DNA of 57,609 bases from a candidate division WWE3 bacterium CG_4_9_14_0_2_um_filter_35_11 (lineage in GTDB: Bacteria; Patescibacteriota; WWE3; 2-01-FULL-39-13), in assembly GCA_002789015.1 (NCBI GenBank), contig PFSJ01000018.1, positions 1-57,609 of the forward strand, in the 5' to 3' direction. The first letter of the stretch is position 1. Every line of letters begins with the position of its first letter. The notes under the pieces were generated by a model, which saw nothing but the letters and a program-made list of their open reading frames with translations, ran no database searches and was not told where the DNA came from. Position numbers and translations under genes: made by a program. This document shows, one piece after another, positions 30,631-56,300 of this stretch.

Positions 30631-31911
30631 ATGAATATTGTTGTAATATCAAGGTCTACAAACGCACATTTTATATCAGGCGGAATGGAAACTCAATTAA
30701 AAAATCTACTCGAAGGTTTAGTTGACTTAGGTCATAAAGTATTTGTAATCACAACTTCTTATCCATTAGATGGTGAAATCTTTAAGGAAAACAAATTGGA
30801 AAAAATAAACGGAGTTGAATATTTTTATATCGGTGATACAACTTCTGGCCTTTTGCCCTTGTCTTTTATTGAGTTCCCGTGGAAGTTATTAGGCATTTTG
30901 GATCGTGGAAATAAAAAAGAAGGAAGTAAGAATTTTTTCGAAGAAAGTCTAAAAGTTTTTAATGAACAAAATGCAAAGAAAAAATTCGATATAATAATTT
31001 CTCAAAGTACTGGGGCATATGGCATCGCGGGGAAGACAAATCTACCAATAGTCTCAATATCGCACGGAACGATTACTAATGAGATAAAAAATAGATTAAA
31101 AACATTAAGGACCTTAAAGAATTGGTTTAGATTTCTGTTAATTGACTTGCCAAAATCGGAATTAGAATTATTAATGTCAAATCGAAAGTTTTATGAACAG
31201 GCTTCATCGATTGCTTGTGTCAGTAATATTTTAAAATCGCAATTTCTAGAGGAATATTCAGGGGATCAAAAAAAACGTATATCAAAGAAAACCACAGTTA
31301 TTTACAATGGCGTTGATTCGGATAAGTTTTCTCCATCAAAAGAAATAAACGATAAATTTAAGGTTTTGTATGTTGGAAGAGTCGATAGAGAAAAAGGAAT
31401 TGATCTGATTATAAGGGCAATGTCTGAATTGAAATCGCGTAAACTTGATATTTCAGCTGATATTATTGGTGGAGGAATCGAGGAAGCTGATTTAAAGAAT
31501 TTGGCAACGTCTCTTGATGTTTCAGATAGAGTCAAATTCTTGGGCCAAGTACAAAATGATAAATTAACTAAGTATTATAACGAAGCGAGCTTGTTTGTGT
31601 TTCCAAGTAGAAGATTAGAGGGTCAGCCTATGACGGTTGTTGAATCTTTCTGCTCTGGGCTCCCGGTAATTGCGACAAGATCTGGTGGGCTTTCAGAAAT
31701 AATTGAGGATGGCGTTAACGGAGTTTTCGTCGAATCAGAAAATTACATTGATATTGCAGATAAGGTTGAGGCGCTTTTTGTAAACAAAAAGCGCCTGATT
31801 GAAATGTCAAAAAACGCTAGGATTTCGGGCTTAGAGAAATTCAGTAAAGTTTCGATGGTGAAAAGTTATGAAAAGTTGTTAGAATCATTAAGTAATGGAA
31901 AAGGAAACTAA
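30631..31911 (+). CDS. GT4-family glycosyltransferase
   Basis: GGMETQLKNL, YVGRVDREKGIDLII, PSRRLEGQPMTVVESFCSGLPVIATRSGGLSEII. Confidence 0.85.
   Translation: MNIVVISRSTNAHFISGGMETQLKNLLEGLVDLGHKVFVITTSYPLDGEIFKENKLEKINGVEYFYIGDTTSGLLPLSFIEFPWKLLGILDRGNKKEGSKNFFEESLKVFNEQNAKKKFDIIISQSTGAYGIAGKTNLPIVSISHGTITNEIKNRLKTLRTLKNWFRFLLIDLPKSELELLMSNRKFYEQASSIACVSNILKSQFLEEYSGDQKKRISKKTTVIYNGVDSDKFSPSKEINDKFKVLYVGRVDREKGIDLIIRAMSELKSRKLDISADIIGGGIEEADLKNLATSLDVSDRVKFLGQVQNDKLTKYYNEASLFVFPSRRLEGQPMTVVESFCSGLPVIATRSGGLSEIIEDGVNGVFVESENYIDIADKVEALFVNKKRLIEMSKNARISGLEKFSKVSMVKSYEKLLESLSNGKGN
31769..31796. other. perfect 12-bp stem / 4-nt loop hairpin inside a GT4 gene
   Basis: AGGCGCTTTTTG taaa CAAAAAGCGCCT, pairs checked by hand. 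It encodes part of EALFVNKKRLI. Confidence 0.85.
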
Positions 31912-33652
31912 AAATTTTAAATTGTCGTTTCCAATTGTAATAATAATATCTTTGATTATTGTTTTTTCGATCTTTATCCGAGCACAAGGACTTTCTTATT
32001 CCGGCTTTCAAGGTGACGAAGTAAATCCAATGACATTCCTTTATGGAATGAAAGACGGACCACTTTCTTATTTGATAGAGCAAAAAAGAGCTCCAATGCA
32101 GTACATAATCAACCTGATTAATGTTTCTATTTTTGGATATCACAATGAGGGCCAAATTAGATTTCCATATTTGATATTCGGAATTCTCGCTTTCTATACA
32201 ATTTATAAACTTTCGAATAAGATTTTTGATAAGAATGTAGCCATTTTTGCGACTTTTTTTATGGCGGTTAATGGTCTTTTTATAGCATTTTCTAGAATTA
32301 CTCAATATCAATCGTTTATGTATTTTTTGATTCCTATTGCGGTTTTGCTTTTTATAAAAGCGCATGAGGCAAATTCACAAAAATTATATTTTTATTCTGG
32401 TCTTTTGATGTCTGTTGCTTTGCTTGCGCATTTTGACACTGTTTCAGTAATGCCATTTTTTGTCGTTGTATTTTTATCAGATTTGATTCGCGGATTCGAT
32501 GTAAAAATATTTAAGAAAAATTTACCTTTTGTTTTAAAATCTGGTTTTACTTTTTTTATAGCTTTTTTAATTCCAGCGGCGATCTATTACATCCCTTACT
32601 TTATGCATCCGTCGTTTTCAGATGGAACTTCCGGTTATTTAGAGGGCCGGCTTTTAGGTGGAGGTTTTATGCCAAGAACTCAAATAACTTTAAAGCTTTT
32701 GAAAATGTACATTCCGAAATTTCACCTTTACACATTATTTATTCTGGGAAGTTTAGCTCTTGTTTTTAAATCAAAAGATTTAGATATCATTAAGTTCCTC
32801 AAATTTAAATTTTCAAAAGGAATTGTTCAAAAGGTTTATTTGCTTTTAGTGTTTGCATTTGTCTTTGCTTCTGAATTTAGCATGTATCCTGTAAAACCAA
32901 GACTTTCTACACTAATGGTTTTGGGAACGTCAATTCTTATAAGTGGAATTTTAATTATTTCAAAGAAAATTGATTATAAATTTGCAGCCTTAGCAACTTG
33001 GTTTTTGGGAACTTATGCTTTTTATTTTTATGTTATGAAGGATCCAAGAACTCATGTTTATGTTTCGATTTTGCCACTTTTCATTTTAGCAGGTTATGGA
33101 TTTTGGAAGCTTATAAATATTTTGAAATCGAATTCGTTGCGATATTTGTCGATTTTTATTTTGTTGTTATCGATTTTGTATGTGTGCGGCGTTAACTGGA
33201 TGATGTTTGTAGATAAGTCTCCAGAGTATCCATGGTGGGATAAGGACTTTTTAGGAACAGCTATTTATCGAATTAAACGCGTAAGGTACGAAAAGATTGA
33301 AGGCGTTTTTGGATTTAACCAGTATCGCGGCTGGGATCAAGTCGCTGACATGTATAAAAAAGGATGTCTTGTAGGAACTTATAATTCTAACGAAAAAGAT
33401 GGTATTACATATTTTTATTTGAGGCATCATCAGGAAAAAGGTGGCCTTTGGGAATTACAGACAGAAAATGTTGATAATTTAATTGTTGTCCCAGGTCCAC
33501 ATAGTTGGGTTTATACAGGTCTTGGCGGAGTTGATGATAAGGATTTTATTTTACTTAAGAAAATTTATTCAAAATATTATTCAGATGAACCGATTTCATA
33601 TATTTATGGCTTAAAGACGCTTTATCCTGAAGGAAAATTATTATGCGAATAA
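31895..33652 (+). CDS. GT-C-fold polytopic membrane glycosyltransferase (PMT_2/ArnT-like)
   Basis: 585 aa with more than 10 TM. Acidic first-loop motif FQGDEVNP, then the RFPYLIFGILAFYTIYKLS ... FSRITQYQSF pattern typical of GT39/GT83-like enzymes. Confidence 0.7.
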   Translation: MEKETKNFKLSFPIVIIISLIIVFSIFIRAQGLSYSGFQGDEVNPMTFLYGMKDGPLSYLIEQKRAPMQYIINLINVSIFGYHNEGQIRFPYLIFGILAFYTIYKLSNKIFDKNVAIFATFFMAVNGLFIAFSRITQYQSFMYFLIPIAVLLFIKAHEANSQKLYFYSGLLMSVALLAHFDTVSVMPFFVVVFLSDLIRGFDVKIFKKNLPFVLKSGFTFFIAFLIPAAIYYIPYFMHPSFSDGTSGYLEGRLLGGGFMPRTQITLKLLKMYIPKFHLYTLFILGSLALVFKSKDLDIIKFLKFKFSKGIVQKVYLLLVFAFVFASEFSMYPVKPRLSTLMVLGTSILISGILIISKKIDYKFAALATWFLGTYAFYFYVMKDPRTHVYVSILPLFILAGYGFWKLINILKSNSLRYLSIFILLLSILYVCGVNWMMFVDKSPEYPWWDKDFLGTAIYRIKRVRYEKIEGVFGFNQYRGWDQVADMYKKGCLVGTYNSNEKDGITYFYLRHHQEKGGLWELQTENVDNLIVVPGPHSWVYTGLGGVDDKDFILLKKIYSKYYSDEPISYIYGLKTLYPEGKLLCE

Positions 33653-35214
33653 AATTACCTAGATTTCCAAACGTTGTTTTTTATTTTTTTATTTTTGGAC
33701 TTCTTTTAAGAGTTGTCGGAATTTGGTTTGGGCTTCCACTTCAGTTAAATATTGATGAACCAACCTTGGTTAGTTCTGTCTTGGATTTAAAGCAAAATAT
33801 TAATCTTGGACATTTTGAATGGCCTCATTTATATTTCTATATAAATTTGTTCTTTTACGTTATTTTTGGTGCTTTCCGGAAAATTGTTTCATTAATTATT
33901 GGAACCCCTTGGTTATACGAAAACCCAAGTCCTTATTTTTTAATCTCAAGATTTCTTTCTGCCGTATTTGGTTCACTAACTATATTTTCCGTATATTTGA
34001 TTTCAAAAGAAATCTTTTCTGAAAGAGTAGGAAAAATTTCTGCTTTAGTTTTAGCCGTTTTGCCAGTTGCTGTTTATGAAGCACATTTGGCGAAGATGGA
34101 TACAGCAAATACTTTTTTTACATCAGTTGCCGTTTATTTTATATGGCAGGTTCATAAAAAAGGCGATTTAAAAGCCTTTATATATTCAGGCATTTTAATT
34201 GGACTTTCAACTTCTATAAAATATAATGGGGCATTATTGTTTTTGCCTTTACTTATTGCTTACTTACTTCGGAGTGAAAAATACTCAAAAATATTTAGTA
34301 TTCAGACTTTGAAGAAGTTTTTGTATTCTGGGATTTCTTCAATTATAGCTTTTTTGATAGGTACTCCATTTGCAATTATTGATTACAAGAAGTTTTTTTC
34401 TACAGAAAGAAATGTCGGTGCTCTGTGGCAATTTCAAAATGTTGGACAAGTTGAGTGGATAAATTTCCCAAATGAAATCTATAACACATTTATTTTAATG
34501 TATAGACAACAGCTGGGATTATTTCTTTGGCTTATTTTTTTAATTCTTATTATCTTGTTTTTATTTTTCAACAAAAGATCAAAGGAATATGTTTTTTTAA
34601 TGTTTCCTGCGATTTTCTTTTCGCTTTATATAAGTCGATTTGACAGGTCTCCAGGTCACTATTTTTTATTTTTGATACCGTTTTATGTCCCTGCTTTGTC
34701 AGGATTTATTGTGGAAATTTATGATTTTATGCAATTAAAATTTAAGAATGTTGTCACGAATAAATTGAACCTATATACATTTGTTACGTTAATTTTATTG
34801 ACATCAATATATCCTATTTTACAGTCAGACTTTTTGCTTTCAAAAAAGGATACAAGAAATTCTGCATATGAGTGGGTGCAATCAAACCTAAATCAGGATG
34901 TGGATTTTCTTTATGTTGTGGGTGAGGAGTTGAAATCTATTCCATTTCAGAAAAATAATACTGAAAAAATTAAAAAGCTTGATAGAAGTTTGATAAAAGT
35001 TCCAGCGCCATTTTATATAGTCATCGGAGTGGAGGGTATTATAAAAGAGGACCTTTTAGGTGGCGATCGGGACCCTGATTCATTAAGCGGAAATTCAGGT
35101 CCAATCTTAAGTGATGCAACGTTAGAATTTTACGCAGATAATAAAGATAGACTTGGTCCGCCGATTTATATATTCAAGGTTAATTCAGTGGAGCCAGAAG
35201 CTGCTGAAGATTAG
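33643..35214 (+). CDS. GT-C-fold membrane glycosyltransferase (PMT_2/ArnT-like); paralog of 44275..45717
   Basis: First-loop NIDEPTLV, HFEWPHLYFYINLFFY, SRFLSAVFGSLTIFSVYLISKE, GLSTSIKYNGALLF. 523 aa. Confidence 0.72.
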   Translation: MRIKLPRFPNVVFYFFIFGLLLRVVGIWFGLPLQLNIDEPTLVSSVLDLKQNINLGHFEWPHLYFYINLFFYVIFGAFRKIVSLIIGTPWLYENPSPYFLISRFLSAVFGSLTIFSVYLISKEIFSERVGKISALVLAVLPVAVYEAHLAKMDTANTFFTSVAVYFIWQVHKKGDLKAFIYSGILIGLSTSIKYNGALLFLPLLIAYLLRSEKYSKIFSIQTLKKFLYSGISSIIAFLIGTPFAIIDYKKFFSTERNVGALWQFQNVGQVEWINFPNEIYNTFILMYRQQLGLFLWLIFLILIILFLFFNKRSKEYVFLMFPAIFFSLYISRFDRSPGHYFLFLIPFYVPALSGFIVEIYDFMQLKFKNVVTNKLNLYTFVTLILLTSIYPILQSDFLLSKKDTRNSAYEWVQSNLNQDVDFLYVVGEELKSIPFQKNNTEKIKKLDRSLIKVPAPFYIVIGVEGIIKEDLLGGDRDPDSLSGNSGPILSDATLEFYADNKDRLGPPIYIFKVNSVEPEAAED

Positions 35215-35233
35215 ATCAATTCTTAAAATCTTA

Positions 35234-35272
35234 CTTTGTAATCATATGCAAGTCTTTGTAATCATATGCAAG
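35234..35272. repeat. tandem direct repeat, 2 x 19 nt (20-nt period), in a convergent intergenic gap
   Basis: CTTTGTAATCATATGCAAG occurs at 35234-35252 and again at 35254-35272. Confidence 0.9.
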
Positions 35273-35290
35273 ATTTCAGTTCCTGAAATC
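35272..35290. terminator. 8-bp stem / 3-nt loop hairpin at the convergent gene junction (candidate weak terminator)
   Basis: GATTTCAG ttc CTGAAATC, followed by TTTGT on the + strand. It overlaps the stop codon of the minus-strand GT-C gene. Confidence 0.3.
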
Positions 35291-38529: not shown

Positions 38530-38535
38530 AATTTA

Positions 38536-39237: not shown

Positions 39238-39241
39238 TAAT

Positions 39242-42848: not shown

Positions 42849-42881
42849 CGTGTATACTTCAAGAAAGTTTTTTAATCTATT

Positions 42882-45717: not shown

Positions 45718-47251
45718 CAAAATTAAAAATTTACCAACGACTCTTTATATATTTTTGTTTGCTTTTTTGTATCGCTTGCCATCTTTGGGCGTGGATTTTA
45801 TAAATAACGATGCATTTTTATGGAAAAGTAGAAGCTACGAATTCGGAAAAGCTTTGATGTCATTAGATTTTGCGAAAACTGCTGTTACGTATCATCCCGG
45901 AATTCCTCTTTTGTGGAGCCAATTTATAGCAATAAAAATTTATTCGCTTTTAGATTTTCTCATATATAAAGGGGTGCTATCTCCGAACGCTGAATTTATT
46001 ACAAACCACATTATTCAAAAAACAGTTTTAGTTTTTTTTACTTCTGTATTAGTTGCTTTAGCATTCTTCTTACTCAAAAAAATAATTGGTCAAAGATCTT
46101 CGATTCTAGTAATTATGTTTGTTCTTTTGGAGCCTTTTTATTTAGGTCTTTCAAGAGCAATCCATACAGATACCATGATTTCACTTTTCATGTTTATCTC
46201 GTGTTTATACTTTTATATCGCATTTTCTAAAGACAACATAATTGAAAGAAATGGTAAAGAGGCGATTTTATCTGGTGTTTTTATAGGTTTGGCAGCTTTA
46301 ACAAAAAGCTCTGCATTATTTTTAATTCCATTTTATGTTTTGGGATACCTAATTTTAAGAAGGTTTGATTTTTCTGAAATAAAAAAATTATTAATTGTTT
46401 ATCTATTTTTTATATTAAGTTTTTTTGCTTTTTGGCCTGCCATGTGGGTAAATCCAGTCGGGTCCTTAAATCTTTACCTATTTAAGGGAGTTGAAGGGGT
46501 GGCCCTCGAAGAGGGCCACGGACATATATGGTTTGGTGTAGAAACACTTGATCCGGGTCCACTTTTTTATCCGATAGCGTTTGTTTCTCGGTATTCAATG
46601 TTTATGGTTTTGATGTTTGTATTCGGGATTTATTTTTCAATTAAAAATTTTAAAAGAAAGTACAAGTTCAACATTAACCTTATTTATTGGTTTGCCTTTA
46701 TTGCATTCTATTTTTTGATGTTGACTTTTGTTTCAAAGAAGTTGGATAGATATCTTCTTCCTATAACTTTTCCAGTTGCTATTTTTTCTGTATATTGGAT
46801 TAGAAATTACTTTTCTAAAAAAGTTTTGGCCCTAATTTTTTCACTTTTTGTTTTTGGTAGATTTGTAATTTTATTTGGCCTACATCCGAACTATTTGGCT
46901 TATTACAGTCAACTAGTTGGTGGAATGGAAAATGGAAGAACTTTGATTGAACCTAAATGGTTGATTGCATATGATAAAGTCGCACTATTTTTTAATAGTG
47001 ACGATGAACCAGAAAAAGTAAAAGTTGCGATCGCCGATTTTGATTATTTAAGACCATTTGCGAAATTTGAGGTTTTGAATATAAGAGTAGAAGAGGAGCG
47101 CAATAAAGCTGATTATTTTGTTTTGCCAGTGTATAGGGAAGAGCGAAATAAATTTTATCTTGATAGCTATAATTTGGAAAAATTAAATGATGTGATAACT
47201 GTTTCAGGCGTAGAGTATTATCAAATTTATAAAAGCCGAGGCAAAAAATAG
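45683..47251 (+). CDS. GT-C-fold membrane glycosyltransferase (PMT_2-like); paralog of 35276..36982
   Basis: 522 aa. NNDAFLW...TYHPGIPLLW, SRAIHTDTMISLF, GLAALTKSSALFLIP. Confidence 0.7.
   Translation: MEIQYMYTQVINKIKNLPTTLYIFLFAFLYRLPSLGVDFINNDAFLWKSRSYEFGKALMSLDFAKTAVTYHPGIPLLWSQFIAIKIYSLLDFLIYKGVLSPNAEFITNHIIQKTVLVFFTSVLVALAFFLLKKIIGQRSSILVIMFVLLEPFYLGLSRAIHTDTMISLFMFISCLYFYIAFSKDNIIERNGKEAILSGVFIGLAALTKSSALFLIPFYVLGYLILRRFDFSEIKKLLIVYLFFILSFFAFWPAMWVNPVGSLNLYLFKGVEGVALEEGHGHIWFGVETLDPGPLFYPIAFVSRYSMFMVLMFVFGIYFSIKNFKRKYKFNINLIYWFAFIAFYFLMLTFVSKKLDRYLLPITFPVAIFSVYWIRNYFSKKVLALIFSLFVFGRFVILFGLHPNYLAYYSQLVGGMENGRTLIEPKWLIAYDKVALFFNSDDEPEKVKVAIADFDYLRPFAKFEVLNIRVEEERNKADYFVLPVYREERNKFYLDSYNLEKLNDVITVSGVEYYQIYKSRGKK
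46499..46519. other. perfect 9-bp GC-rich stem / GAA loop inside a GT-C gene
   Basis: GTGGCCCTC gaa GAGGGCCAC, encoding VALEEGH. Confidence 0.85.
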
Positions 47252-48819
47252 TGAAAAAGGATATTTTGATAATTCTTGCGATTTTTCTGTTTTCTTTTGG
47301 TTTTAGATTGTGGAACATAACGAAACACTTTGAAGTTTGGGACGAAACCGCGGTTGTTAGGGTCGGGGAAATCTATATTAATTCAATTAAATCTCTTGAT
47401 TTTAGTGAAAATACATGGAAATTAAATAAGGAACATCCGCCTTTTTCGAAATATTTTTATGGAGCATCAAGAATCGTTACTTTGAATTCTGATTATTTAA
47501 GCAATAATATTGATCAGGATTTTCCACTCGGAAGAAGATATTCATTACAAAGAATCTTAAGCGCTTTTGTTGGCTCTATTACAATTGTTCTTTTATATAT
47601 ATTGGCAAGTAAGTTCTACAATTCGAAAATTGCATTGATATCAAGCCTTATATTATCTTTGACGCCCCATTATTTTGCACATAGCAGAGTTGCAACCCAA
47701 GAGAATTTTGTTTCCTTTATGACTTTAGTCACAGTTTGCTTTTTCTTTTTTGCATTACGTACACGAAAACTTAAACATCGGTTTTACATTATCTCTGGAG
47801 TTTTGTTAGGACTTTCAATTGCAACAAAATATAACTCACTTTTCTTTTTAGTATTGTTTTTACTTCTCACTCTGTCTGAGTTTGGTCGTCGTTTTTTAAA
47901 ATCAAGATTCTTGATTTTAAAAAACGACCTAATTTTAATTCCATTTTTAGCTTTAGGAACTTTCTACGCTGTTTGGCCGTGGCTTTGGCCAGATCCAGTT
48001 GGAAGATTTTTATCAAGCGTAAGTCGTATAAATGGTTCAAGATATTTCGAATACTTTTTAGGACAATTTCCATCTCCGCACTCTTGGTATTATTTTTTTG
48101 TTTATTTATTTGCTACAACGCCCCCAATTATTTTGCTTGGAGTTTTCCTTTTTGGGATTAAATTCATATTCAAAAGGGGAAAATACGATTTTTGGTTTCT
48201 GATGTATTTTTTAACGCCATTAATGGCTACGTTTTCACCTCTTAAAATGGATGGCATAAGATATATATTTCCAATATATCCTGCAATGGCAATTATTTCT
48301 GGAGTAGGATTTTATTTTCTAATCGATATTTCCGGAAAATTTATAGATTCGACATATAAATCAATTGTTGAATTTGCAACTCCAGTTATTGTATTCGGAA
48401 TACTTTTTATGACGATACTAATATATCATCCATTTTATTTCGATTACTATAATATATTTTTTGGAGGCCCATCAGGAGTTTATAAAAACCGATTATTTGA
48501 TTTTGGTTATTGGGGAGAAGGATTAAGAGACGGCATGAATTTTATATATAAGGAGGACCCAGATATTAGAAAGAAAGTATATCTTAAGATTTTACCAGTG
48601 CACGTATTGCCACCTTATAAAAATAACACTGTATACGTTGATGAAATTGAGAAAGCTGACTACGTGATAATAAATCCTGCTGGAGAGTGGTTAAATCAGA
48701 CAAATTATCTTGATTATGATTTTCCATACAATTTTGATATCGTATTTGAGGAAGCATTGATGGATGCTCCGATTGTTCAAGTTTATAAAAGGAAGTTTCC
48801 GTATATCGGGAAATTATGA
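47251..48819 (+). CDS. GT-C-fold membrane glycosyltransferase (PMT_2/ArnT-like)
   Basis: GTG start overlapping the upstream TAG (TAGTG). WDETAVVRVGEIY ... NKEHPPFSKYFYG, SRVATQENF, GLSIATKYNSLFF. Confidence 0.72.
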   Translation: MKKDILIILAIFLFSFGFRLWNITKHFEVWDETAVVRVGEIYINSIKSLDFSENTWKLNKEHPPFSKYFYGASRIVTLNSDYLSNNIDQDFPLGRRYSLQRILSAFVGSITIVLLYILASKFYNSKIALISSLILSLTPHYFAHSRVATQENFVSFMTLVTVCFFFFALRTRKLKHRFYIISGVLLGLSIATKYNSLFFLVLFLLLTLSEFGRRFLKSRFLILKNDLILIPFLALGTFYAVWPWLWPDPVGRFLSSVSRINGSRYFEYFLGQFPSPHSWYYFFVYLFATTPPIILLGVFLFGIKFIFKRGKYDFWFLMYFLTPLMATFSPLKMDGIRYIFPIYPAMAIISGVGFYFLIDISGKFIDSTYKSIVEFATPVIVFGILFMTILIYHPFYFDYYNIFFGGPSGVYKNRLFDFGYWGEGLRDGMNFIYKEDPDIRKKVYLKILPVHVLPPYKNNTVYVDEIEKADYVIINPAGEWLNQTNYLDYDFPYNFDIVFEEALMDAPIVQVYKRKFPYIGKL

Positions 48820-49943
48820 ATAAAAAAAGATTGTTGATGTGTTATCACTCATCAGAATATGGTGGAGTAGAAAAACAAATACTAGATATTATAAAAGGGC
48901 TTTCTGAAAAGATTGAAATTATTGTGGTTTGTCCAGAAGGTCCAATGGTAAAGGAATATTTAAGTGGCGGGGCGATAAAGCATATTGCTTTATCGCCCCG
49001 CCATGAAGCGGATTTGCAGTATGCACTGCAAATCCGCCAACTCATAATTCTAGAAAAAATAGATATCGTACATTCTCATGAACTTTTAACTGGATCTCTT
49101 GCAACTTTTGGTGGGTGGCTTGCTTCATTTAGAAAACCTGTAAAAAGAATTTATCATGTTCATACACCTTTTTCTTGGTGGAGACACAATTTTCTCAAAA
49201 GTTTACCAGCACTTTTCATAAATACATTTGTTAATTTTATTGTCGGTAATATTTTTGCAACGGATGTTTTAGCACTTACTCCATCTATTAAAAGACATAG
49301 AATATTTAATGAATTTATCTCTCCAACAAAAATCAGAGTACTTCCAAATGGAATTGAGAATGAGTACTTCAGTTTTTCGCAATTACAAAGAAATTCCTTT
49401 AGAAAAAAATGGCGCATTCCAGTTGACACATTTGTTATAGGAAATATTTCTCGTTTTACAAAGGAAAAAGGTCATGAAGTTTTAATTAACGCTTTTTCAC
49501 AAATTAAGAAACAAAATCCAGGTAAGAATATGCTTTTGCTTCTTGCTGGTGGAGGAATTCTTTTAAACGAGATAAAGTCTTTATCTAAAAACCTTGGTAT
49601 TTATGAAAGTGTAATTTTTACAGATCAATTTTTAGAATCGGATAAGATTGGAATATTATCTTCAATTGATTTATTTGTATTTCCATCCTATGCCGAAGGC
49701 TTTGGAATTGCTATTCTTGAATCAATGTCTATGGGAATTCCTACAGTAGCTTCTAACCTACCTGTATTAAAAGATGTTGGTGGCGATGCTGTAATTTATG
49801 CGAAAACAGGAGATCCCAGCGATTTTGCGGCTAAAATGAGGGCTATCCCTGATGTTTCATCAGGGGTAGCCCTCCTAAAAAGGGCCGAAGTCTTTTCGAT
49901 GCGAAATTTCATCAAGAATTATTCAGGCCTTTATAACCTATGA
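48816..49943 (+). CDS. GT4-family glycosyltransferase
   Basis: EYGGVEKQILDI, IDIVHSHE, ISRFTKEKGHEVLI, PSYAEGFGIAILESMSMGIPTVASN. Confidence 0.85.
   Translation: MNKKRLLMCYHSSEYGGVEKQILDIIKGLSEKIEIIVVCPEGPMVKEYLSGGAIKHIALSPRHEADLQYALQIRQLIILEKIDIVHSHELLTGSLATFGGWLASFRKPVKRIYHVHTPFSWWRHNFLKSLPALFINTFVNFIVGNIFATDVLALTPSIKRHRIFNEFISPTKIRVLPNGIENEYFSFSQLQRNSFRKKWRIPVDTFVIGNISRFTKEKGHEVLINAFSQIKKQNPGKNMLLLLAGGGILLNEIKSLSKNLGIYESVIFTDQFLESDKIGILSSIDLFVFPSYAEGFGIAILESMSMGIPTVASNLPVLKDVGGDAVIYAKTGDPSDFAAKMRAIPDVSSGVALLKRAEVFSMRNFIKNYSGLYNL
48965..49037. other. twin GC-rich perfect hairpins inside the GT4 gene
   Basis: Hairpin 1 (48965-49003): GGCGGGGCGATAAAGC(a) tat (t)GCTTTATCGCCCCGCC, a 16-17 bp perfect stem plus an outer T-A pair. 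Hairpin 2 (49008-49037): GCGGATTTGCAGT atgc ACTGCAAATCCGC, a 13-bp perfect stem. Confidence 0.9.
49838..49874. other. 17-bp stem (one G-T) / TTT loop hairpin carrying the GGGCTAYCCC core, inside the same GT4 gene
   Basis: GAGGGCTATCCCTGATG ttt CATCAGGGGTAGCCCTC. It is followed by CTAAAAAGGGC, which resembles the spacer-plus-repeat start of the sufS element. Confidence 0.85.
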
Positions 49944-51124: not shown

Positions 51125-54100
51125 ATGGATTACATAATGCTCCTCCCAGCTTTAGCAATTTTCATACTGTCTTTTATTTTAGGAATCAAAAATTTAAGAA
51201 TTTCTTTTCTACTTTTAATAATTTTGACGCCTTTAGTTCATAAAGAGTTATTTAGCCTTGGTGGAATTTGGGATTTGCTCCCTATTAGAGTTGCCTTCGG
51301 TGGTATCGCTTTATCTTCTGTTTATCATTTTTTTGTTTGGGCAAAAAAAGCAGGTTACAAAAGATTTTTACATTCGAGTTTAGAGGCTTTGAAAAAAGAT
51401 CCATTTTTAGTTTTGCTTTTATCTTTGTGGCTGCTTCGACTTTTATGGATCAAAAAATCAGCTTCTTTTGACGAAAGTTTTAAACTGTACATTTTTTATT
51501 CTTCAATTGTTGGCATTTATTTTATTTTTAGAAATTTATATGAAAAGCATGGGTTGAAATTTATAAGAAAGTCTATTGATCTTTATTTAGCCATGGGCTT
51601 TTTTGCGGCCTTAATTGCTGTTTTGCAATTTTATTTAAGGATTTGTTGCAGGTTTAGCGTTGGAGGAGTTTGGGTTGTCCCAGGTTATACTCCTCGTCTC
51701 GGCTCGACTTTTTGGGATGTAAATCATTTTGGCGGTTATTTAGTAACGATGATTCCTATTTTATTTGCAATGTTTTTCATGAAGCACAAAAATAGGTTTG
51801 CTAAATTTTATTACCTTTTTTCAGCATTTTTCCTGTCTGGAATTTTATTTTTCACTCAATCTAGAAGTTCGTGGATGGGACTTGCGGTTGGACTTGGTTT
51901 ATCCTTATTCATATATTATTTTTCAAGTTTAAAAAAGATTTTATATTCGTTTGCGATACTTGTATTAGTCGGAATTGTAGGACTTTTATCGTACACAACA
52001 TACAAACATATTTCCATAAATGAAAAGGTTGCTTCTTTTATGCACTACAGACTTGATTCTACTGACACACATATGCTTCTTTTAGACGGCGCAAGTGAAG
52101 TTTATTTTGATAACTTTTTGATTGGTGCTGGGTATGGAAATTTTGATCACGCATTTAGAGGTACGCCAATATCGGATATCTATTTTAATAGGGAGCCAAA
52201 ACTTAAAGAGATGAAAGTTCCACCTCATAGTGTGTGGGGCGAAGTTTTAGCAGAAACAGGATCAGTAGGTATGACTTTATATGCACTTTTTGCAGGTCTT
52301 ATTTTGGCAAGCCTTGTTGTTTCAATCTTTACGTCTAAATCAAATGATGTGAAATATTTAGGCACTGGTCTTCTTGGTGGCGCCGTTTCCATATTTGTTG
52401 CTGGACTATTTTATTCTTACAATATGGAATTTTATTGGATTTATCTTTTTATATGTATCGGGTTTTCTATTATGACAATTGGTAAGAATCGGAATTTACC
52501 TTATGTTCTAAATTGGTGGTCTAAAAATCCGATTACACCATATTTGATAATCTTGCCTATTTCAGCTTTTTATATTTTCATAAGACTTGGTTCTACGACC
52601 TTAATTGATTGGGACGAAGCCATTTATGCAAAAGTTGCAAAAAATATTGTTTTATCTAACGATTGGTTGACTTTGCATTGGACGGACATGAAAGACTATT
52701 GGTTTGAAAAGCCACCATTTTATATGTGGCTTACGGCTTTAGCATTTAAGATTACAGGATTTAATTCATTCGGTGCAAGAATAGTTTCTGCCACTTTCGG
52801 GATTTTTGGAATAATGGCAACATATAAATTAGGAAGTAAACTTTACAACAAACTAACAGGTATTACTGCATCGTTGATTTTGTTATCAACCGCTCATTAT
52901 TTGTACTATTCACGAAATGGAATGTTAGATGTCACAGCAACATTTTTTATTGTGTTGTCGATATTCTATTTTTATAGAGGGCTGTCGTTGAGCGATAAGC
53001 GAAACGCAGCCCTCATAAGCTGGCTCCTTTCGGGAGCCAGCATCGGCTTCGCCGTTATGACAAAGGGAATCATTGGTTTTATACCACTGCCAATTATTTT
53101 TATTTATTTGTTGGTTTTAGATATAAAAAATCTCAAAAAATATTTGAAACCATTTTTATTCATTGTAATTGGTATTTTATTAATAGCAGGGCCATGGCAT
53201 ATTTACTCATTGATTAAATACGGGAATGATTTCTGGGATACATATTTTATTGATCACATGATTGGTCGTGGACTTTCTGGTTTTGGTCACGAGAAACCGG
53301 TTTTGTGGTTTTTAGATGTAATAAGGACTTCATTTAGAATTTGGATTCTGCCACTTTTTGGTGCTTTGGTTTTGCTTCCATTTTTTGATAAGGATAGAAG
53401 GCAGTATTATCTTCTTCTGATTTCTACTTTTTTTGTTTTAATTTTCTTTTCGGTATCAAAAGATAAATTGCAGTGGTATATAATGCCGATTTATCCGTTC
53501 ATTGCTATTTTGTCTGCACGTTTTATAGAAAGATCTATATATATTCTTAATTCATTTTTAAGAAGTGAAATAAGGTTTGATAATAAATACTCAAGAATTT
53601 TATTAGTATTTTGTGCTTCTTTAGTTGCCATTTTCTATGTAGTAATTATCCGAGATAAAGTTTATTTGTCCGATTTCAATAAGGACAAGGTCGCATTGGT
53701 AGAGATAAATAATAAGAATTATCCAATTGAAGACTATCCAGATCGAAAATTATATTTCAGTAGAATTGAACCTCCTGTGTTGCGTTTTTATAGCGATCAT
53801 GTTGTTAAGTCAGTTGATGAGCCAACTATTTTAAGAATGATAGACGATGCCGGGCCTTTAGAAAACTATAGCTTTTTGGTTCCAGATTCGGTCTATTATA
53901 AATTGCAAAGTAAGGGAGGCAGGATTAAGGCTCCACTAGTTTTAGACATTAAAGGTACGTCTGGAGGTTGGGTATTATTAAAATCTGTTTCTAGGGTAGA
54001 GCTATTGAGATCTCAACTTGAAACGCTCATGTCAAGACATAAGACATTTATTGATAGGTTGATATTGGGCGAAAAATTAACACTACTCGAAAAGATGGCG

Positions 54101-54199
54101 TTTGATGAAATTAATATAGAAATCGCTGATGTATCAACTAAGCTTACGAATTATGGGTATCCACCAGACCCTATAGAAGATCCTTTTTATGTTAAATAA
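51125..54199 (+). CDS. fusion protein: O-antigen-ligase/Wzy_C-like N-terminal half + ArnT/PMT_2-like GT-C C-terminal half + soluble C-terminal domain
   Basis: N half: FTQSRSSWMGLAVGLG and PPHSVWGEVLAETGSVG (Wzy_C-like). From about aa 465: LIDWDEAIYAKVAKNI...WFEKPPFYMWLTALAF...GARIVSATFGIFGIMATYKLG...GFAVMTKGIIGFIPLP (ArnT/PMT_2-like). 1024 aa. Confidence 0.7.
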   Translation: MDYIMLLPALAIFILSFILGIKNLRISFLLLIILTPLVHKELFSLGGIWDLLPIRVAFGGIALSSVYHFFVWAKKAGYKRFLHSSLEALKKDPFLVLLLSLWLLRLLWIKKSASFDESFKLYIFYSSIVGIYFIFRNLYEKHGLKFIRKSIDLYLAMGFFAALIAVLQFYLRICCRFSVGGVWVVPGYTPRLGSTFWDVNHFGGYLVTMIPILFAMFFMKHKNRFAKFYYLFSAFFLSGILFFTQSRSSWMGLAVGLGLSLFIYYFSSLKKILYSFAILVLVGIVGLLSYTTYKHISINEKVASFMHYRLDSTDTHMLLLDGASEVYFDNFLIGAGYGNFDHAFRGTPISDIYFNREPKLKEMKVPPHSVWGEVLAETGSVGMTLYALFAGLILASLVVSIFTSKSNDVKYLGTGLLGGAVSIFVAGLFYSYNMEFYWIYLFICIGFSIMTIGKNRNLPYVLNWWSKNPITPYLIILPISAFYIFIRLGSTTLIDWDEAIYAKVAKNIVLSNDWLTLHWTDMKDYWFEKPPFYMWLTALAFKITGFNSFGARIVSATFGIFGIMATYKLGSKLYNKLTGITASLILLSTAHYLYYSRNGMLDVTATFFIVLSIFYFYRGLSLSDKRNAALISWLLSGASIGFAVMTKGIIGFIPLPIIFIYLLVLDIKNLKKYLKPFLFIVIGILLIAGPWHIYSLIKYGNDFWDTYFIDHMIGRGLSGFGHEKPVLWFLDVIRTSFRIWILPLFGALVLLPFFDKDRRQYYLLLISTFFVLIFFSVSKDKLQWYIMPIYPFIAILSARFIERSIYILNSFLRSEIRFDNKYSRILLVFCASLVAIFYVVIIRDKVYLSDFNKDKVALVEINNKNYPIEDYPDRKLYFSRIEPPVLRFYSDHVVKSVDEPTILRMIDDAGPLENYSFLVPDSVYYKLQSKGGRIKAPLVLDIKGTSGGWVLLKSVSRVELLRSQLETLMSRHKTFIDRLILGEKLTLLEKMAFDEINIEIADVSTKLTNYGYPPDPIEDPFYVK
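52977..53041. other. twin GC-rich hairpins inside the ArnT-like half of the fusion gene
   Basis: Hairpin A (52977-53014): outer GAGGGCTG/CAGCCCTC, inner CGTT/AACG and GC/GC. Hairpin B (53019-53041): GCTGGCTCC tttcg GGAGCCAGC, a 9-bp perfect stem. By hand count 39 of 65 nt are G/C. Confidence 0.85.
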
Positions 54200-56300
54200 A
54201 ATTTCTAAATATTTAATTTATCTGTTAGTAATCTCAATTCCATTTACGCATAAGGAAATGTTTTCGATTTTTGATCCTGATCTTGTTATTTCAAAGTTTT
54301 TTTTAATTTTAGTTTCTGTTTTGGGAATATTTTATTTCTCAAAAAATTATAGTTTATATTTAAAAGATAAATTGTTTGTGTTTCTCTCCTTGATTGTCCT
54401 TTTTCAACTGTTAAGCCTTCTTCAAAGTCGCGACATTATGAATTCGATTAGAATGATATTTTTTCAAGGAGCGATTTTATTTTCATATCCAACATTTAAA
54501 GAATATATAATTTCAGAAAAAGGGAGTATCTCGAGGTTGGTCAATGTTTATAAATACACATTTTTATTTGTTTTTGCGTTTTTACTTTATCAAATGTATT
54601 TGCAGGAAACAAAAGGCATTGCAACAGGTGGAGTTTGGCCAGTCCCTGGATATCCAACAAGGTATGGTTCTGTATTTTGGGATGTAAATCATTTTGCGGC
54701 TTATCTTTCATCTTTATTTTTTATTGTTTTGGCAAGTTTGTTGGCTACAAAAAAGCGGGCGGGAAAATACTTTGATTTTGTGCTAATTATCCTAATTGGT
54801 ATTTCGCTATATTTTACAAGCTCAAGAAGTGCAACGATCGGATTTGCATTTGGACTTTTATCGTTCATGTATATTTATATTGGAATTTATAAAAAGATTA
54901 GATTTAAATTTGGAACATTTACTTGGGCCGGAATTGCTATAACTTTTGTTACATTACCTTTGTCTATTTTATATCTATTTCAGGATATAATTAGGCAATC
55001 ATTTTTATATAGATCTGTATCATTTTTTTCTCATCTTTTTTTAATGAAAGTTGGAATTAATGTTGGACTTGAAAACTTTTTGTTTGGAATAGGAACGAAT
55101 TCATTTCACGCTTATTTTCATACATCAAAGTGGGCAAATGCTTATTACTATATAGATAAAGCGGCATTAAGTTATAAGTTGCCACTTCACAATTTATGGC
55201 TTGAGGTCTTTGCCGAAACTGGTGTTTTTGCATTAATTTGCTTTATTTTGTTTTGGGTTTTGTTACTTTACATGCTTTCTAGATCAGTTTCGGCAAAGAC
55301 CCTAAATCTTACTTCAGTCGGTTTTTTTGCAGGTATAATTTCATTTTTAGTAGGTGGGGTTATGTATTCATATAAATCTGAATTCTTTTGGATTTACGTC
55401 GTGATTGCGTGTGCTTATGTAACGTATCACTTCAAAAATATTGATTTAAAACTGCCGACATTTAATCTACCGACACTTTATTCTTTTGCTACTTATGTTT
55501 TTATAGGGGTCTCTTTTTTGTTGCCACTTTTTTATCTTATGTCTCCTATAACTTATGATGAGATGTTAATAATTTATTCAGAAAAAAGTCTGTATTTTTT
55601 AGATTTGTTTAGATATATTTTAGGAAATTTTTCGTTTACGGATAGATCTTTTTCTTTGATTTTTTATATCGGTAGCATTTTACTTTTGTTCGGAATCTTT
55701 AGAAAGACGTGCAAGGGAAAAAGAGCACTTGTTTCAACGGCTATTGCTTTTAATTTGATTAATATTTTTGTTCCTGGTGTTTATGTTTCAACGAAATGGA
55801 TTGTTTGTTTTTTTGTTTTAGTTCTTATGTCGTTTGGAATGAAGTTTTTGAAGCTTACGGGTCATTTTGTTTGTCATTTGAAGTGGGCAAATAAATCAGT
55901 TTATGCGTTTGTTTTGATTTTGTCTTTTTTGCTAGCGATGTTTTCTGCAAATTCATATAGCAAGAAGTATTCGTATGATAGTGATTTGTCTTTTTTGCTT
56001 GAGCTTGCATCGAATCGATTGCTTTTTGAGAAGTCTTCTATTTGGGTTGATTCAAGCGTTGATTTGCCTTTGGCTCATTATTATTGCGATTCTATGAGTA
56101 AGAAGGATGGTGTTTTTAGCCTGAATTCATGTGATATTAATGTTTTGAACAAGAACGCTATTTCTGTCGCAAATGCTCCAAAGCTAATTATTATTGGCAA
56201 GTCTGATTTTATTGATAAGATTTCTATTCTCGGCGATGAGTTTCATCATGGCGAGAATTATTTAAAAAGCGGCGAGTATATGATGTCGGTTTTGGATTAG
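54189..56300 (+). CDS. O-antigen-ligase/Wzy_C-like polytopic membrane protein with extra C-terminal TM and soluble region; paralog of the N-half of 51125..54199
   Basis: GGVWPVPGYPTRYGSVFWDVNHF (compare GGVWVVPGYTPRLGSTFWDVNHF), FTSSRSATIGFAFG, PLHNLWLEVFAETGVFA. Confidence 0.65.
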   Translation: MLNKISKYLIYLLVISIPFTHKEMFSIFDPDLVISKFFLILVSVLGIFYFSKNYSLYLKDKLFVFLSLIVLFQLLSLLQSRDIMNSIRMIFFQGAILFSYPTFKEYIISEKGSISRLVNVYKYTFLFVFAFLLYQMYLQETKGIATGGVWPVPGYPTRYGSVFWDVNHFAAYLSSLFFIVLASLLATKKRAGKYFDFVLIILIGISLYFTSSRSATIGFAFGLLSFMYIYIGIYKKIRFKFGTFTWAGIAITFVTLPLSILYLFQDIIRQSFLYRSVSFFSHLFLMKVGINVGLENFLFGIGTNSFHAYFHTSKWANAYYYIDKAALSYKLPLHNLWLEVFAETGVFALICFILFWVLLLYMLSRSVSAKTLNLTSVGFFAGIISFLVGGVMYSYKSEFFWIYVVIACAYVTYHFKNIDLKLPTFNLPTLYSFATYVFIGVSFLLPLFYLMSPITYDEMLIIYSEKSLYFLDLFRYILGNFSFTDRSFSLIFYIGSILLLFGIFRKTCKGKRALVSTAIAFNLINIFVPGVYVSTKWIVCFFVLVLMSFGMKFLKLTGHFVCHLKWANKSVYAFVLILSFLLAMFSANSYSKKYSYDSDLSFLLELASNRLLFEKSSIWVDSSVDLPLAHYYCDSMSKKDGVFSLNSCDINVLNKNAISVANAPKLIIIGKSDFIDKISILGDEFHHGENYLKSGEYMMSVLD
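55205..55301. repeat. 17-bp perfect inverted repeat flanking a 63-nt segment inside the ligase-like gene
   Basis: GGTCTTTGCCGAAACTG (55205-55221) is the exact reverse complement of CAGTTTCGGCAAAGACC (55285-55301). Confidence 0.9.

What the first reader, a model, noticed from the sequence alone, without database searches (positions are those of the whole stretch)
31769..55301. A class of GC-rich perfect stem-loops overprinted on coding sequence, concentrated in the glycan operon
The glycan genes contain at least seven perfect or near-perfect inverted repeats entirely inside ORFs:
- 31769-31796
- 46499-46519
- 48965-49003 and 49008-49037
- 49838-49874
- 52977-53014 and 53019-53041
- 55205/55285 (long-range)

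A further one lies in uppP (3525-3556). Stems of 9-17 bp are built from codons that are otherwise rare here (GGC, GGG, GCG, TCG, CCC, CGC, CTG, CTC, GCC, ATC). Nucleotide-level structure therefore seems to be selected, or recently imported, on top of protein coding.

The host proteins do not look obviously lengthened relative to paralogs or family norms. This differs from simple in-frame insertion of Rickettsia-palindromic-element type. The operon has almost no intergenic space, so these may be embedded equivalents of REP/BIME-like elements, RNase processing or stability signals, pause or attenuation sites, or protein-binding cruciforms.
Basis: seen in the sequence. Interest (0 to 1): 0.7.

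Follow-up and report, generated by a model that had tools for sequence, protein, structure and literature searches.

The report
Coding palindromes in a CPR bacterium
Genes of an AT-rich candidate-division WWE3 (Patescibacteria) bacterium carry far more perfect, GC-rich hairpin-forming inverted repeats than chance allows; some are kept by compensating changes in relatives and others are newly made, so pairing is constrained on top of protein coding.

Summary
All listed hairpins are at the stated coordinates.

**Statistics.** Against synonymous-codon shuffles of the 47 ORFs:
- Perfect stems of at least 12 bp: 6 observed, 0.16 expected.
- 48-nt windows at or below -21 kcal/mol: 6 observed, 0.35 expected.

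The extremes cluster at 46-53 kb, but housekeeping genes also show excess.

**Source.** A WWE3 (Patescibacteria) genome with about 32% GC.

**What relatives at 70-88% nucleotide identity show:**
- Four hairpins have invariant stems (31769, 46499, 48965, 49008). Third codon positions in conserved stems differ 2/38, against 37% elsewhere.
- The long-range stem 55205/55285 co-varies, with a sense-strand U·G intermediate.
- A palindrome just past the window keeps perfection through three double changes, two of which alter amino acids.
- 49838, 52977 and 53019 exist only in this lineage. They sit in dense, GC-enriching mutation clusters that add 6 and 36 nt in frame.

**What they are not.** They are not a repeat family, not terminators and not Rfam RNAs. 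No transposase is nearby.

**Best reading.** These are in-situ coding palindromes, made by pairing-directed mutation and held by a pairing constraint that is at least partly at RNA level. Their function is unproven.

The parts
3525..3556 (+). 13-bp perfect GC-rich hairpin (6-nt loop) inside uppP. It encodes the conserved GLFRGLDREKAAKFSF segment.
   Evidence: -27 kcal/mol; BacA family. No relative was available for this region.
11047..11074 (+). 13-bp perfect hairpin inside sufB.
   Evidence: (SUFBD_core).
31769..31796 (+). 13-bp perfect hairpin in the GT4 gene 30631-31911. The stem is invariant in two relatives and only the loop differs.
   Evidence: L062 at 82% nt identity, L063 at 79%; 0/26 stem positions differ vs 17-19% outside.
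46499..46519 (+). 9-bp GC hairpin GTGGCCCTC-GAA-GAGGGCCAC in a PMT_2 gene. It lies in the longest identical run (62 nt) between the window and L001.
47888..47928 (+). L001 has only a 14/20 quasi-palindrome here. The right arm is shared with L003.
   Evidence: the window's left arm matches rc(L001 right arm) 15/20 and L001's left arm 12/20.
48965..49003 (+). 18-bp perfect hairpin (-37 kcal/mol) on conserved residues GGAIKHIALSPRH of GT4. It is nucleotide-identical in L001, L002 and L003 and absent from homologues at 53-55% identity.
49008..49037 (+). 13-bp perfect hairpin 4 nt after the previous one. The stem is identical in relatives and the loop varies (G/T).
49838..49874 (+). 17-bp hairpin with one U.G (sense strand only). 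It is found only in the window lineage, adds 6 nt, and sits in a 72-nt cluster of private, GC-enriching changes.
   Evidence: 10-nt reverse-complement match to the ancestral AGGGCTACCC.
52977..53014 (+). Imperfect GC-rich hairpin found only in the window lineage. It corresponds to a 36-nt in-frame length gain. Its termini GAGGGCT...AGCCCTC are shared with 49838.
   Evidence: (restores the loop length typical of the wider family).
53019..53041 (+). 9-bp GC hairpin found only in the window lineage. It was made by about 11 substitutions with no length change.
55205..55221 (+). 5' arm of the 17-bp long-range stem. It encodes the Wzy_C motif LEVFAETG.
   Evidence: kept in 5 lineages; two pairs co-vary; U.G intermediate in L052.
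55285..55301 (+). 3' arm of the long-range stem.
   Evidence: codon position 3 pairs with position 3.
30224..30244 (+). AT-rich palindrome AGTTTAATATCCGATATTAAA inside GT4, found only in the window lineage. The same word recurs at 56298.
56298..56322 (+). 12-bp palindrome over the stop codon of the last glycan gene. It holds the reverse complement of the 30224 word and is absent from relatives.
51657..51710 (+). Sense-specific imperfect hairpin (-21.9 sense, -15.8 antisense). It shows an A-U/U-A swap relative to relatives.

Best explanation
These are 'coding palindromes': hairpin-forming inverted repeats that arise in place inside ordinary genes of a WWE3 (Patescibacteria) lineage. They are not copies of a mobile repeat.

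**Origin (inferred).** A weakly self-complementary stretch is driven to a perfect or near-perfect stem in one of two ways:
- Clustered, pairing-directed changes. These are template-switch-type copying of one arm from the other, sometimes with small in-frame length changes.
- Stepwise, mostly synonymous AT>GC substitutions in both arms.

**Maintenance (shown).** Once formed, the pairing is held.
- Where codon third positions pair with third positions, the arms co-vary.
- Where they pair with first or second positions, the stem is frozen.

**Level and function.** At least part of the constraint acts on the sense RNA; this is supported by U.G intermediates and a sense-only excess. The most likely function is inferred and untested: structural elements of the very long, overlap-packed mRNAs that slow decay or processing, or modulate ribosome passage. 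This would do inside ORFs what intergenic REP-like hairpins do in a related Patescibacterium.
For: **Excess over synonymous shuffles**
-.

**Frozen stems**
- Third codon positions differ 2/38 in conserved stems against 37% outside (Fisher p=6e-6).
- The 31769 stem differs 0/26 in two relatives.
- In 31769 and 49008 only the loops vary.

**Co-variation in the long-range stem**
- One pair is C-G or U-A.
- Another pair is U-A, U.G or C-G.
- 97.6% of cells are paired, against 31-58% when the partner is slid.

**Palindrome just beyond the window, same genome**
- L056 21220-21254 is perfect (14 bp). L053 13223-13257 is perfect (16 bp).
- They differ by three double changes. Two of these alter amino acids on both arms.

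**Pairing phase**
- Co-variation occurs only in the two stems with 3-3 pairing phase.

**RNA level**
- Hairpins of -17 to -21 kcal/mol: 12 observed vs 4.4 expected on the sense strand, 2 vs 2.2 on the antisense strand.
- The single non-Watson-Crick pair of 49838 is U.G on the sense strand.
- L052 built its own hairpin with 6 private substitutions. Five are synonymous, they fall in both arms, they include wobble-to-Watson-Crick changes, and one G.U is kept.

**In-situ origin**
- The two strongest clusters of window-private changes in the alignment upstream of the divergent 3' end of the Wzy_C gene (49.3-55.6 kb) coincide with 49838 and 52977-53041.
- Within those patches AT>GC:GC>AT is 28:3, against 191:82 outside.
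- At 47888 the left arm resembles the reverse complement of the relative's right arm.

**Comparator**
- L011 has REP-like GC hairpins between its glycan genes.
Against: - No expression, RNA-end or structure-probing data exist, so the function is wholly inferred.
- Eight of the roughly eleven strongest hairpins are perfect Watson-Crick palindromes, mostly with loops of 1-4 nt. That pattern fits a strand-symmetric DNA process (arm conversion) better than RNA selection, which tolerates G.U.
- Arm conversion combined with protein-level purifying selection would mimic synonymous-site conservation without any function. This argument was made for Nematomorpha, PMC6649704.
- Transversion double changes (C-G>A-U) have no wobble intermediate.
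- Positions within genes follow no common rule.
- Relatives gain and lose sites, so none is indispensable.
- Co-variation rests on 2-6 sequences. In one search, 14 of 500 shuffles reached the observed score.
- The 52977-53059 patch has no local template. It could be imported DNA.
Confidence: 0.5

Rival explanations
1. The palindromes are functionless and self-perpetuating by-products of replication template switching. Quasi-palindromes are converted to perfect ones, and mismatches are repeatedly erased by copying one arm from the other. Protein-level selection then filters the outcomes. This yields perfect, apparently conserved and co-varying stems with no role for the hairpin.
For: - The stems are perfect, with loops of 1-4 nt.
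- Multi-base clusters with small indels occur at 49838 and 47888.
- Three double changes, including transversions and amino-acid changes, preserve perfection at L056/L053.
- Different lineages carry different sites.
- Literature:
  - Perfect inverted repeats are enriched and conserved in Proteobacteria, attributed to template switching (PMC5941160).
  - Template switching can create and maintain stems (PMC8794818).
  - The same argument was made for Nematomorpha coding palindromes (PMC6649704).
Against: - The sense-only excess of intermediate hairpins.
- A U.G intermediate and a residual G.U in the long-range stem and in the L052 hairpin.
- L052's corrections lie in both arms and skip an internal G.T, so they are not one conversion tract.
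- 53019 needs about 11 AT>GC changes in both arms. Copying local AT-rich sequence cannot produce that.
- The stems are GC-rich against the genome's composition.
Confidence: 0.3
2. The function is at DNA level. The perfect palindromes extrude as cruciforms or bind a dimeric protein, for example a gyrase or IHF-type partner as at REP/BIME, a regulator or a recombinase. They would manage supercoiling or recombination in a long, membrane-protein-rich operon.
For: - The strongest sites are strand-symmetric and perfect.
- The antisense excess at <= -21 kcal/mol (5 vs 0.28) equals the sense excess.
- The same 21-nt palindromic word occurs at both ends of the glycan cluster, 30224 and 56298.
Against: - The hairpins share no common sequence motif that a protein could recognise.
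- G.U-type evidence points to RNA.
- The long-range stem, with arms 63 nt apart, is unlikely to extrude as a cruciform.
Confidence: 0.08
3. The hairpins are small mobile or imported palindromic elements (RPE-, PARCEL-, REP- or GC-cluster-like) inserted or recombined in frame into genes.
For: - 52977-53014 is a 36-nt in-frame gain inside an approximately 100-nt GC-rich private patch. 49838 adds 6 nt.
- Those two share the termini GAGGGCT...AGCCCTC (2 found, 0 expected).
- A 21-nt word is duplicated.
- Short recombination patches do occur between strains.
- A relative has a true REP-like family with GGGCTGAGCCC cores.
Against: - Most sites add no length and overprint conserved residues.
- The interiors are unrelated, and no other copy exists in 57.6 kb or in any held locus.
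- No transposase or RAYT is in the window.
- The 36-nt gain restores the loop length normal for the protein family. It looks like homologous sequence rather than a foreign element.
Confidence: 0.07
4. The signal is chance, an amino-acid-composition effect or an assembly artefact.
For: - Palindromes do disturb the assemblies. Several contigs end at them.
Against: - Synonymous shuffles that keep the protein and the codon usage never reach the observed counts.
- The same hairpins occur in six independent assemblies at 99.8-99.99% identity and in diverged relatives, always in frame.
Confidence: 0.02

Closest known systems
[quoted passage not shown] 2019, PMC6649704)
   Same: - Perfect inverted repeats lie inside functional protein-coding genes.
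- Both arms encode conserved residues.
- Genetic-code degeneracy is used to keep pairing.
- Gains and losses differ between lineages.
- The candidate mechanism is template switching or arm conversion.
- The function is unknown.
   Different: - This case is a bacterial chromosome, not mtDNA.
- Arms here are 9-20 bp, not up to 284 bp.
- The stems are GC-rich in an AT-rich genome.
- Some stems carry sense-strand G.U pairs.
- There is a sense-only excess of imperfect hairpins, which that paper did not report.
Excess and conservation of short perfect inverted repeats in bacteria, attributed to template switching (Lavi et al. 2018, PMC5941160; Monttinen & Loytynoja 2022, PMC8794818)
   Same: - Perfect inverted repeats exceed null expectation, more so with longer arms.
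- The exact repeat is conserved across orthologous regions.
- There are multi-base compensatory changes.
   Different: - Those analyses concerned non-coding repeats (E. coli and relatives) and RNA genes.
- Here the repeats are inside ORFs, are built from rare codons, and in one case drag amino-acid changes along.
Selection for local mRNA secondary structure in bacterial coding regions (Katz & Burge 2003; cited from my own knowledge, not retrieved here)
   Same: - Native coding sequences fold more stably than codon-shuffled versions.
- The excess is on the sense strand.
   Different: - That effect is a modest genome-wide shift.
- Here there are discrete 13-20-bp perfect stems of -20 to -37 kcal/mol.
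REP/BIME elements and their RAYT transposases (e.g. PMC3733652)
   Same: - Short GC-rich hairpins associated with operons.
- Sometimes arranged in adjacent pairs (48965+49008; 52977+53019).
- A plausible shared role in mRNA stabilisation.
- A related Patescibacterium (L011) has genuine intergenic REP-like repeats in its glycan cluster.
   Different: - REPs are extragenic.
- REPs are a repeated sequence family with a conserved GTAG/CGTC tag, and they have a RAYT partner.
- These hairpins are intragenic and have unique sequences, and no RAYT was seen.
Rickettsia palindromic elements (RPE) and PARCELs (PMC2996958)
   Same: - Palindromic DNA tolerated in frame inside protein-coding genes.
- 52977 and 49838 add residues in a loop.
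   Different: - RPEs and PARCELs are 100-150-bp repeated families. They insert extra peptide segments and decay with time.
- Most hairpins here add nothing, are 21-41 nt long, have unique sequences, and stay perfect.

Membership tests
REP/BIME (RAYT-associated repetitive extragenic palindromes) | Many copies of one sequence family in the genome | tested here: not met
   blastn-short of each hairpin against the window and all 63 loci finds only orthologous copies. Only 57.6 kb of this genome plus about 6.7 kb from L056 could be searched.
REP/BIME (RAYT-associated repetitive extragenic palindromes) | Extragenic location | tested here: not met
   All sites lie inside Pfam-supported ORFs and are translated in frame.
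REP/BIME (RAYT-associated repetitive extragenic palindromes) | Cognate RAYT (IS200/IS605 TnpA-like) gene in the genome | tested here: inconclusive
   None among the 47 ORFs of the window. The rest of the genome was not available.
Rickettsia palindromic elements / PARCEL-type in-frame mobile palindromes | Insertion adds an extra peptide segment relative to orthologues | tested here: not met
   - No added length at 31769, 46499, 47888, 48965, 49008, 53019 or 55205.
- Length is added only at 49838 (+2 aa) and 52977 (+12 aa). The latter restores the family-typical loop length.
Rickettsia palindromic elements / PARCEL-type in-frame mobile palindromes | Repeated family of about 100-150 bp with recognisable consensus | tested here: not met
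   The elements are 21-41 nt with unrelated interiors. Only the 7-nt termini of two sites and one 21-nt word recur.
Intrinsic (Rho-independent) terminators | GC-rich stem followed directly by a U tract | tested here: not met
   The terminator scan finds 8 sites against 5.9 expected. Of the hairpins, only 47888 is flagged, and weakly. The flanks were read directly.
Known structured RNA families (Rfam 15) | Covariance-model match at the gathering score | tested here: not met
   0 matches in the whole window. In 46-56.5 kb only two chance-level hits, E 0.66-0.75.
Coding palindromes (Nematomorpha type; a phenomenon, not a sequence family) | Perfect inverted repeat inside a functional ORF, with both arms encoding conserved residues | tested here: met
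   48965/49008 lie on conserved GT4 residues, 3525 on the uppP motif and 55205 on the Wzy_C motif.
Coding palindromes (Nematomorpha type; a phenomenon, not a sequence family) | Arms evolve in concert and perfection is kept despite divergence | tested here: met
   L056 and L053 are both perfect after three double changes. Stems are invariant at 20% divergence.
Template-switch (quasi-palindrome) mutation products | The derived sequence is the reverse complement of neighbouring ancestral sequence, arriving as one multi-base cluster | tested here: inconclusive
   - Fits 47888 (15/20 vs 12/20).
- Fits 49838 partly (10-nt reverse-complement match).
- Fails for 52977-53041, which has no local template.
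- Fails for L052's hairpin, where changes lie in both arms and an internal G.T is skipped.
Conserved cis-acting RNA structure | Compensatory base-pair changes across lineages, with G.U intermediates on the transcribed strand | tested here: met
   Long-range stem: 2 pairs changed on both sides, plus U.G in L052 and G.U in L054. Only 5-6 sequences were available, and 14 of 500 shuffles reached the score.

The most novel reading that the evidence does not exclude
This WWE3 lineage may have an active, possibly enzyme- or element-driven process that writes GC-rich hairpins into coding sequence. Hints are the shared GAGGGCT...AGCCCTC termini, the duplicated 21-nt palindrome, and four or more gains within 8 kb since about 15% divergence. 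On this reading the products serve as a new class of intragenic cis-regulatory RNA elements. They would be embedded functional equivalents of REP/BIME, for RNA processing or stability, in CPR operons that have lost their intergenic space.
Probability: 0.12. Interest if true: 0.8.

Novelty: new member of a known kind. Interest (0 to 1): 0.55.

Why it matters
**If the pairing constraint is functional.** CPR bacteria with overlap-packed operons would carry their mRNA stability or processing signals inside ORFs. Protein sequences would then partly evolve to serve RNA or DNA structure. One palindrome here changes amino acids on both arms in order to stay perfect.

**If it is not functional.** This would be a clean bacterial example of self-maintaining coding palindromes. 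It would show that arm conversion can mimic purifying selection at synonymous sites. That matters for dN/dS analyses and for RNA-structure inference.

**Practical point.** These palindromes break short-read assemblies of such genomes at reproducible positions.

Tried and rejected
- **Rfam**: nothing found.
- **Terminator and promoter scan**: the hairpins are not terminator-like.
- **Repeat-family search**: each hairpin was searched in the window and all loci, and the GAGGGCT..AGCCCTC pattern was searched separately. No copies were found beyond orthologues.
- **Donor search for the 52977-53059 patch**: DNA and peptide were searched against all held loci and paralogues. None was found.
- **Local template-switch source for 52977**: none found.
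- **Metagenome scan for close relatives**: gave only one useful contig, and it duplicates L001.
- **P0002 and two ENA contigs**: could not be fetched.
- **Programmed frameshift or bypass**: rejected by direct reading. There is no slippery heptamer upstream of the two hairpins I read for this, 48965 and 49838; the ORFs stay open, and the encoded residues are conserved.
- **DGR target, HIP1, DNA-uptake sequence and CRISPR**: considered and dropped. There is no template repeat, only a single GCGATCGC, no repeated motif and no array.
- **One-mismatch class test** (G.T 3, A.C 0): too few cases to carry weight.
- **Homologous site in L052's divergent GT4** (45% identity): no hairpin there.

Full report
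**1. What the window is**

The window has about 32% GC and a strong positive GC skew on the + strand.
- Bases 1-29 kb hold housekeeping genes: serS, a PAP2 gene, uppP, secA, pyrD, the suf genes, a release factor, ftsEX-like genes and others.
- From about 22 kb to 56.3 kb lies a glycan cluster. It holds GT2 and GT4 enzymes, many PMT_2 (GT-C) membrane transferases, a flippase-like protein and two Wzy_C proteins. One of these is a 1024-aa Wzy_C+PMT_2 fusion.
- The nearest named genome is a candidate division WWE3 (Patescibacteria/CPR) MAG.
- Six independent assemblies hold the same strain at 99.8-99.99% identity.

**2.

All listed inverted repeats are at the stated coordinates.

- A 20-bp perfect palindrome at 47888-47928.
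- A 13-bp one in sufB at 11047-11074.
- A 21-nt palindromic word present at both 30224-30244 and 56298-56322.

I shuffled synonymous codons within each of the 47 ORFs, which keeps the protein and the codon usage.
- Perfect stems of at least 12 bp: 6 observed, 0.155 expected. No shuffle of 200 gave more than 2.
- GC-rich stems of at least 9 bp: 8 observed, 0.18 expected.

For 48-nt folding windows against 40 shuffles:

| Threshold (kcal/mol) | Observed clusters | Expected |
|---|---|---|
| <= -17 | 18 | 4.8 |
| <= -21 | 6 | 0.35 |
| <= -25 | 4 | 0.05 |

Stems use rare codons. GC3 is 0.65 against 0.25, and mean RSCU is 0.85 against 1.39.

The excess is not limited to the glycan genes.
- At <= -17: 10 vs 2.4 in the glycan part and 8 vs 2.4 in the rest.
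- At <= -21: 5 vs 0.2 and 1 vs 0.15. The extremes sit at 46-53 kb.

**3. Not insertions, mostly**

The GT4 protein 48816-49943 aligns without gaps to homologues across the double hairpin 48965-49037. That stretch encodes conserved residues (GGAIKHIALSPRHEADLQYALQIR).

Homologues at 53-55% identity have no hairpin there. They fold at -16 to -28 kcal/mol per 150 nt, against -62 to -64.5 in the window clade.

One homologue (L007) keeps a left-arm-like sequence. So it was mainly the right arm that was remodelled.

**4. Relatives**

I assembled syntenic DNA from these relatives:

| Locus | Nucleotide identity to window |
|---|---|
| L003 | 88% |
| L052 | 85.5% |
| L004/L053 | 83.5% |
| L062 | 82% |
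| L063 | 79% |
| L001/L002/L050 | 78-81% |
| L054 | 74% |
| L055 | 70.5% |

Three behaviours appear.

(a) Frozen stems.
- 46499 sits in the longest identical run (62 nt) between the window and L001.
- 48965 and 49008 are base-identical in three distinct lineages. Flanks and one loop base vary.
- The 31769 stem is identical in L062 and L063, with a loop change in L063.
- Third codon positions in the conserved stems differ at 2 of 38 sites, against 37% elsewhere (Fisher p=6e-6). For 31769 the figure is 0 of 8 against 34%.
- Caveat: these stems were picked because they are conserved.

(b) Co-variation in the 17-bp long-range stem 55205-55221/55285-55301.
- It is kept in five lineages.
- One pair is C-G in the window, L052 and L004, and T-A in L001, L054 and L055.
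- Another pair is T-A in the window, L001 and L055, C-G in L004 and L054, and T.G in L052.
- 97.6% of cells pair, against 31-58% when the partner is slid.
- The T.G state is a wobble only on the sense strand.

(b, continued) A palindrome just beyond the window, in the same genome.
- L056 21220-21254 lies in a GT4 gene on the other strand and is a perfect 14-bp palindrome.
- In L053 the homologous site is a perfect 16-bp one.
- They differ by three double changes: C-G>T-A, C-G>A-T and A-T>C-G.
- Two of these alter amino acids: N/K on one arm, and A/D paired with A/S.

(b, continued) Pairing phase.
- These two are the only stems in which codon position 3 pairs with position 3.
- The frozen stems pair position 3 with position 1 or 2, where a compensating change would alter the protein.

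(c) Lineage-specific gains.
- 49838 (+6 nt), 52977-53014 (+36 nt, in frame) and 53019-53041 (no length change) are absent from all five relatives.
- 47888 is perfect in the window. Its right arm is shared with L003. L001 has only a 14/20 quasi-palindrome.
- In the alignment upstream of the divergent 3' end of the Wzy_C gene, the two densest clusters of window-private differences are 49815-49887 and 52953-53059.
- Within those patches AT>GC:GC>AT is 28:3, against 191:82 elsewhere.
- Other lineages make their own hairpins. L052 built a 12-bp hairpin at window position ~49415 with six private substitutions.
  - Five are synonymous and all increase pairing.
  - They are spread over both arms and include wobble-to-Watson-Crick steps.
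  - One internal G.U is left.

**5. Origin**

Template switching on quasi-palindromes fits 47888. The window's left arm matches the reverse complement of L001's right arm at 15/20, and L001's left arm at 12/20.

It partly fits 49838, where a 10-nt core is the inverted ancestral AGGGCTACCC.

It does not fit 52977-53041:
- No local template exists.
- Both arms of 53019 changed by AT>GC.
- The 36-nt gain restores a loop length that is normal in the wider protein family, while the close relatives are 12 aa shorter.

That patch may be imported homologous DNA. Short recombination patches do occur between strains (10 SNPs in 26 nt). No donor was found.

L052's hairpin looks like stepwise selection rather than one conversion tract.

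**6. DNA or RNA**

Folding the antisense strand with the same shuffles gives these counts:
- <= -17 kcal/mol: 7 observed vs 2.5 expected.
- <= -21 kcal/mol: 5 observed vs 0.28 expected.

So the perfect palindromes are symmetric, as they must be. The class between -17 and -21 is in excess only on the sense strand: 12 vs 4.4, against 2 vs 2.2 on the antisense strand.

Together with the U.G states, this shows that part of the constraint is on the mRNA.

Against a purely RNA reading, about eight of the eleven strongest hairpins are flawless Watson-Crick palindromes, mostly with loops of 1-4 nt. Transversion double changes also have no wobble route.

Arm conversion plus protein-level selection can mimic synonymous conservation without function. 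Mikhailov et al. argued this for Nematomorpha coding palindromes (PMC6649704). Lavi et al. (PMC5941160) and Monttinen & Loytynoja (PMC8794818) argued it for bacterial inverted repeats and RNA stems.

**7. What they are not**
- No Rfam family matches.
- They are not terminator-like.
- They are not a repeated family.
- No transposase or RAYT is in the window.
- They are not assembly artefacts. They occur in frame in six assemblies and in diverged relatives, although they do break assemblies.

A related Patescibacterium (L011) carries true REP/BIME-like GC-rich hairpins in the intergenic gaps of its glycan cluster. It is not a membership claim.

**8. Verdict**

These are in-situ coding palindromes and hairpins under a pairing constraint.
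- **Shown:** excess over chance, frozen or co-varying stems, lineage-specific gains in mutation clusters, and a sense-strand component.
- **Inferred:** generation by template switching plus point substitutions, and a role as mRNA structural elements (decay or processing barriers, or modulators of translation).

The main rival is functionless self-maintenance by arm conversion, to which I give 0.3.

The phenomenon belongs with known inverted-repeat excess, template switching and the Nematomorpha coding palindromes. What is new is the setting: a CPR bacterium, with GC-rich stems in an AT-rich genome, and amino-acid changes made in step on both arms.

Noticed in passing
window 47911, 48970-48998, 49044 (ends of L003, L050, L060/L061 and L004; N-gap in L058): Contigs from at least five independent assemblies start, stop or carry a scaffold gap exactly at the coding palindromes 47888-47928 and 48965-49037. 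These hairpins systematically break short-read assemblies of this lineage.
   Followed up: partly
window 56851-56876: Strains otherwise 99.9% identical (L056, L060) differ from the window by 10 substitutions within 26 nt of the minus-strand gene 56320-57540. This looks like a short recombination patch. No direct or reverse-complement template lies nearby.
   Followed up: partly
L011 7204-7261 and 8684-8791: Another Patescibacterium (32% GC) has a repeated family of very GC-rich hairpins (GGGCTGAGCCCG-NNN-CGGGCTCAGCCC). They occur in paired, inverted arrangement in the intergenic gaps of its glycan gene cluster, in the manner of REP/BIME elements.
   Followed up: partly
window 30224-30244 and 56298-56322: The same 21-nt palindromic word, AGTTTAATATCCGATATTAAA, occurs inside the first large GT4 gene and, as its reverse complement, over the stop codon of the last glycan gene. 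Both copies are absent from relatives (L063; L001 and L004). It could be an operator or recombination site, or a templated copy.
   Followed up: partly
window 35270-35292: A 10-bp hairpin between the convergent genes 33643-35214 (+) and 35276-36982 (-) is identical in L063. It is probably a shared, bidirectional transcript-end structure.
   Followed up: no
window 55641-56268: The C-terminal third of the Wzy_C gene 54189-56300 is a dense block of window-private differences, including a 17-nt indel. The rest of the gene is about 85% identical to L052 and L004. This is a hypervariable or recombined segment of a surface-glycan polymerase or ligase.
   Followed up: no
window 57491-57609: Alignments to four of the near-identical strains (L056, L057, L059, L060) stop at 57491, whereas L058 continues to 57609. 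There is strain-level structural variation at the window's right end.
   Followed up: no
L056 21220-21254 and L053 13223-13257 (GT4 gene about 5 kb beyond the window's right end): A further coding palindrome is perfect in both lineages (14 and 16 bp) despite three compensated pair changes, two of which alter amino acids on both arms. This is the clearest co-variation case found.
   Followed up: yes
window 51125-54199: A 1024-aa fusion of an O-antigen-ligase-like Wzy_C domain with a PMT_2 (GT-C) glycosyltransferase. The same architecture is conserved in more than 80 Patescibacteria homologues.
   Followed up: no
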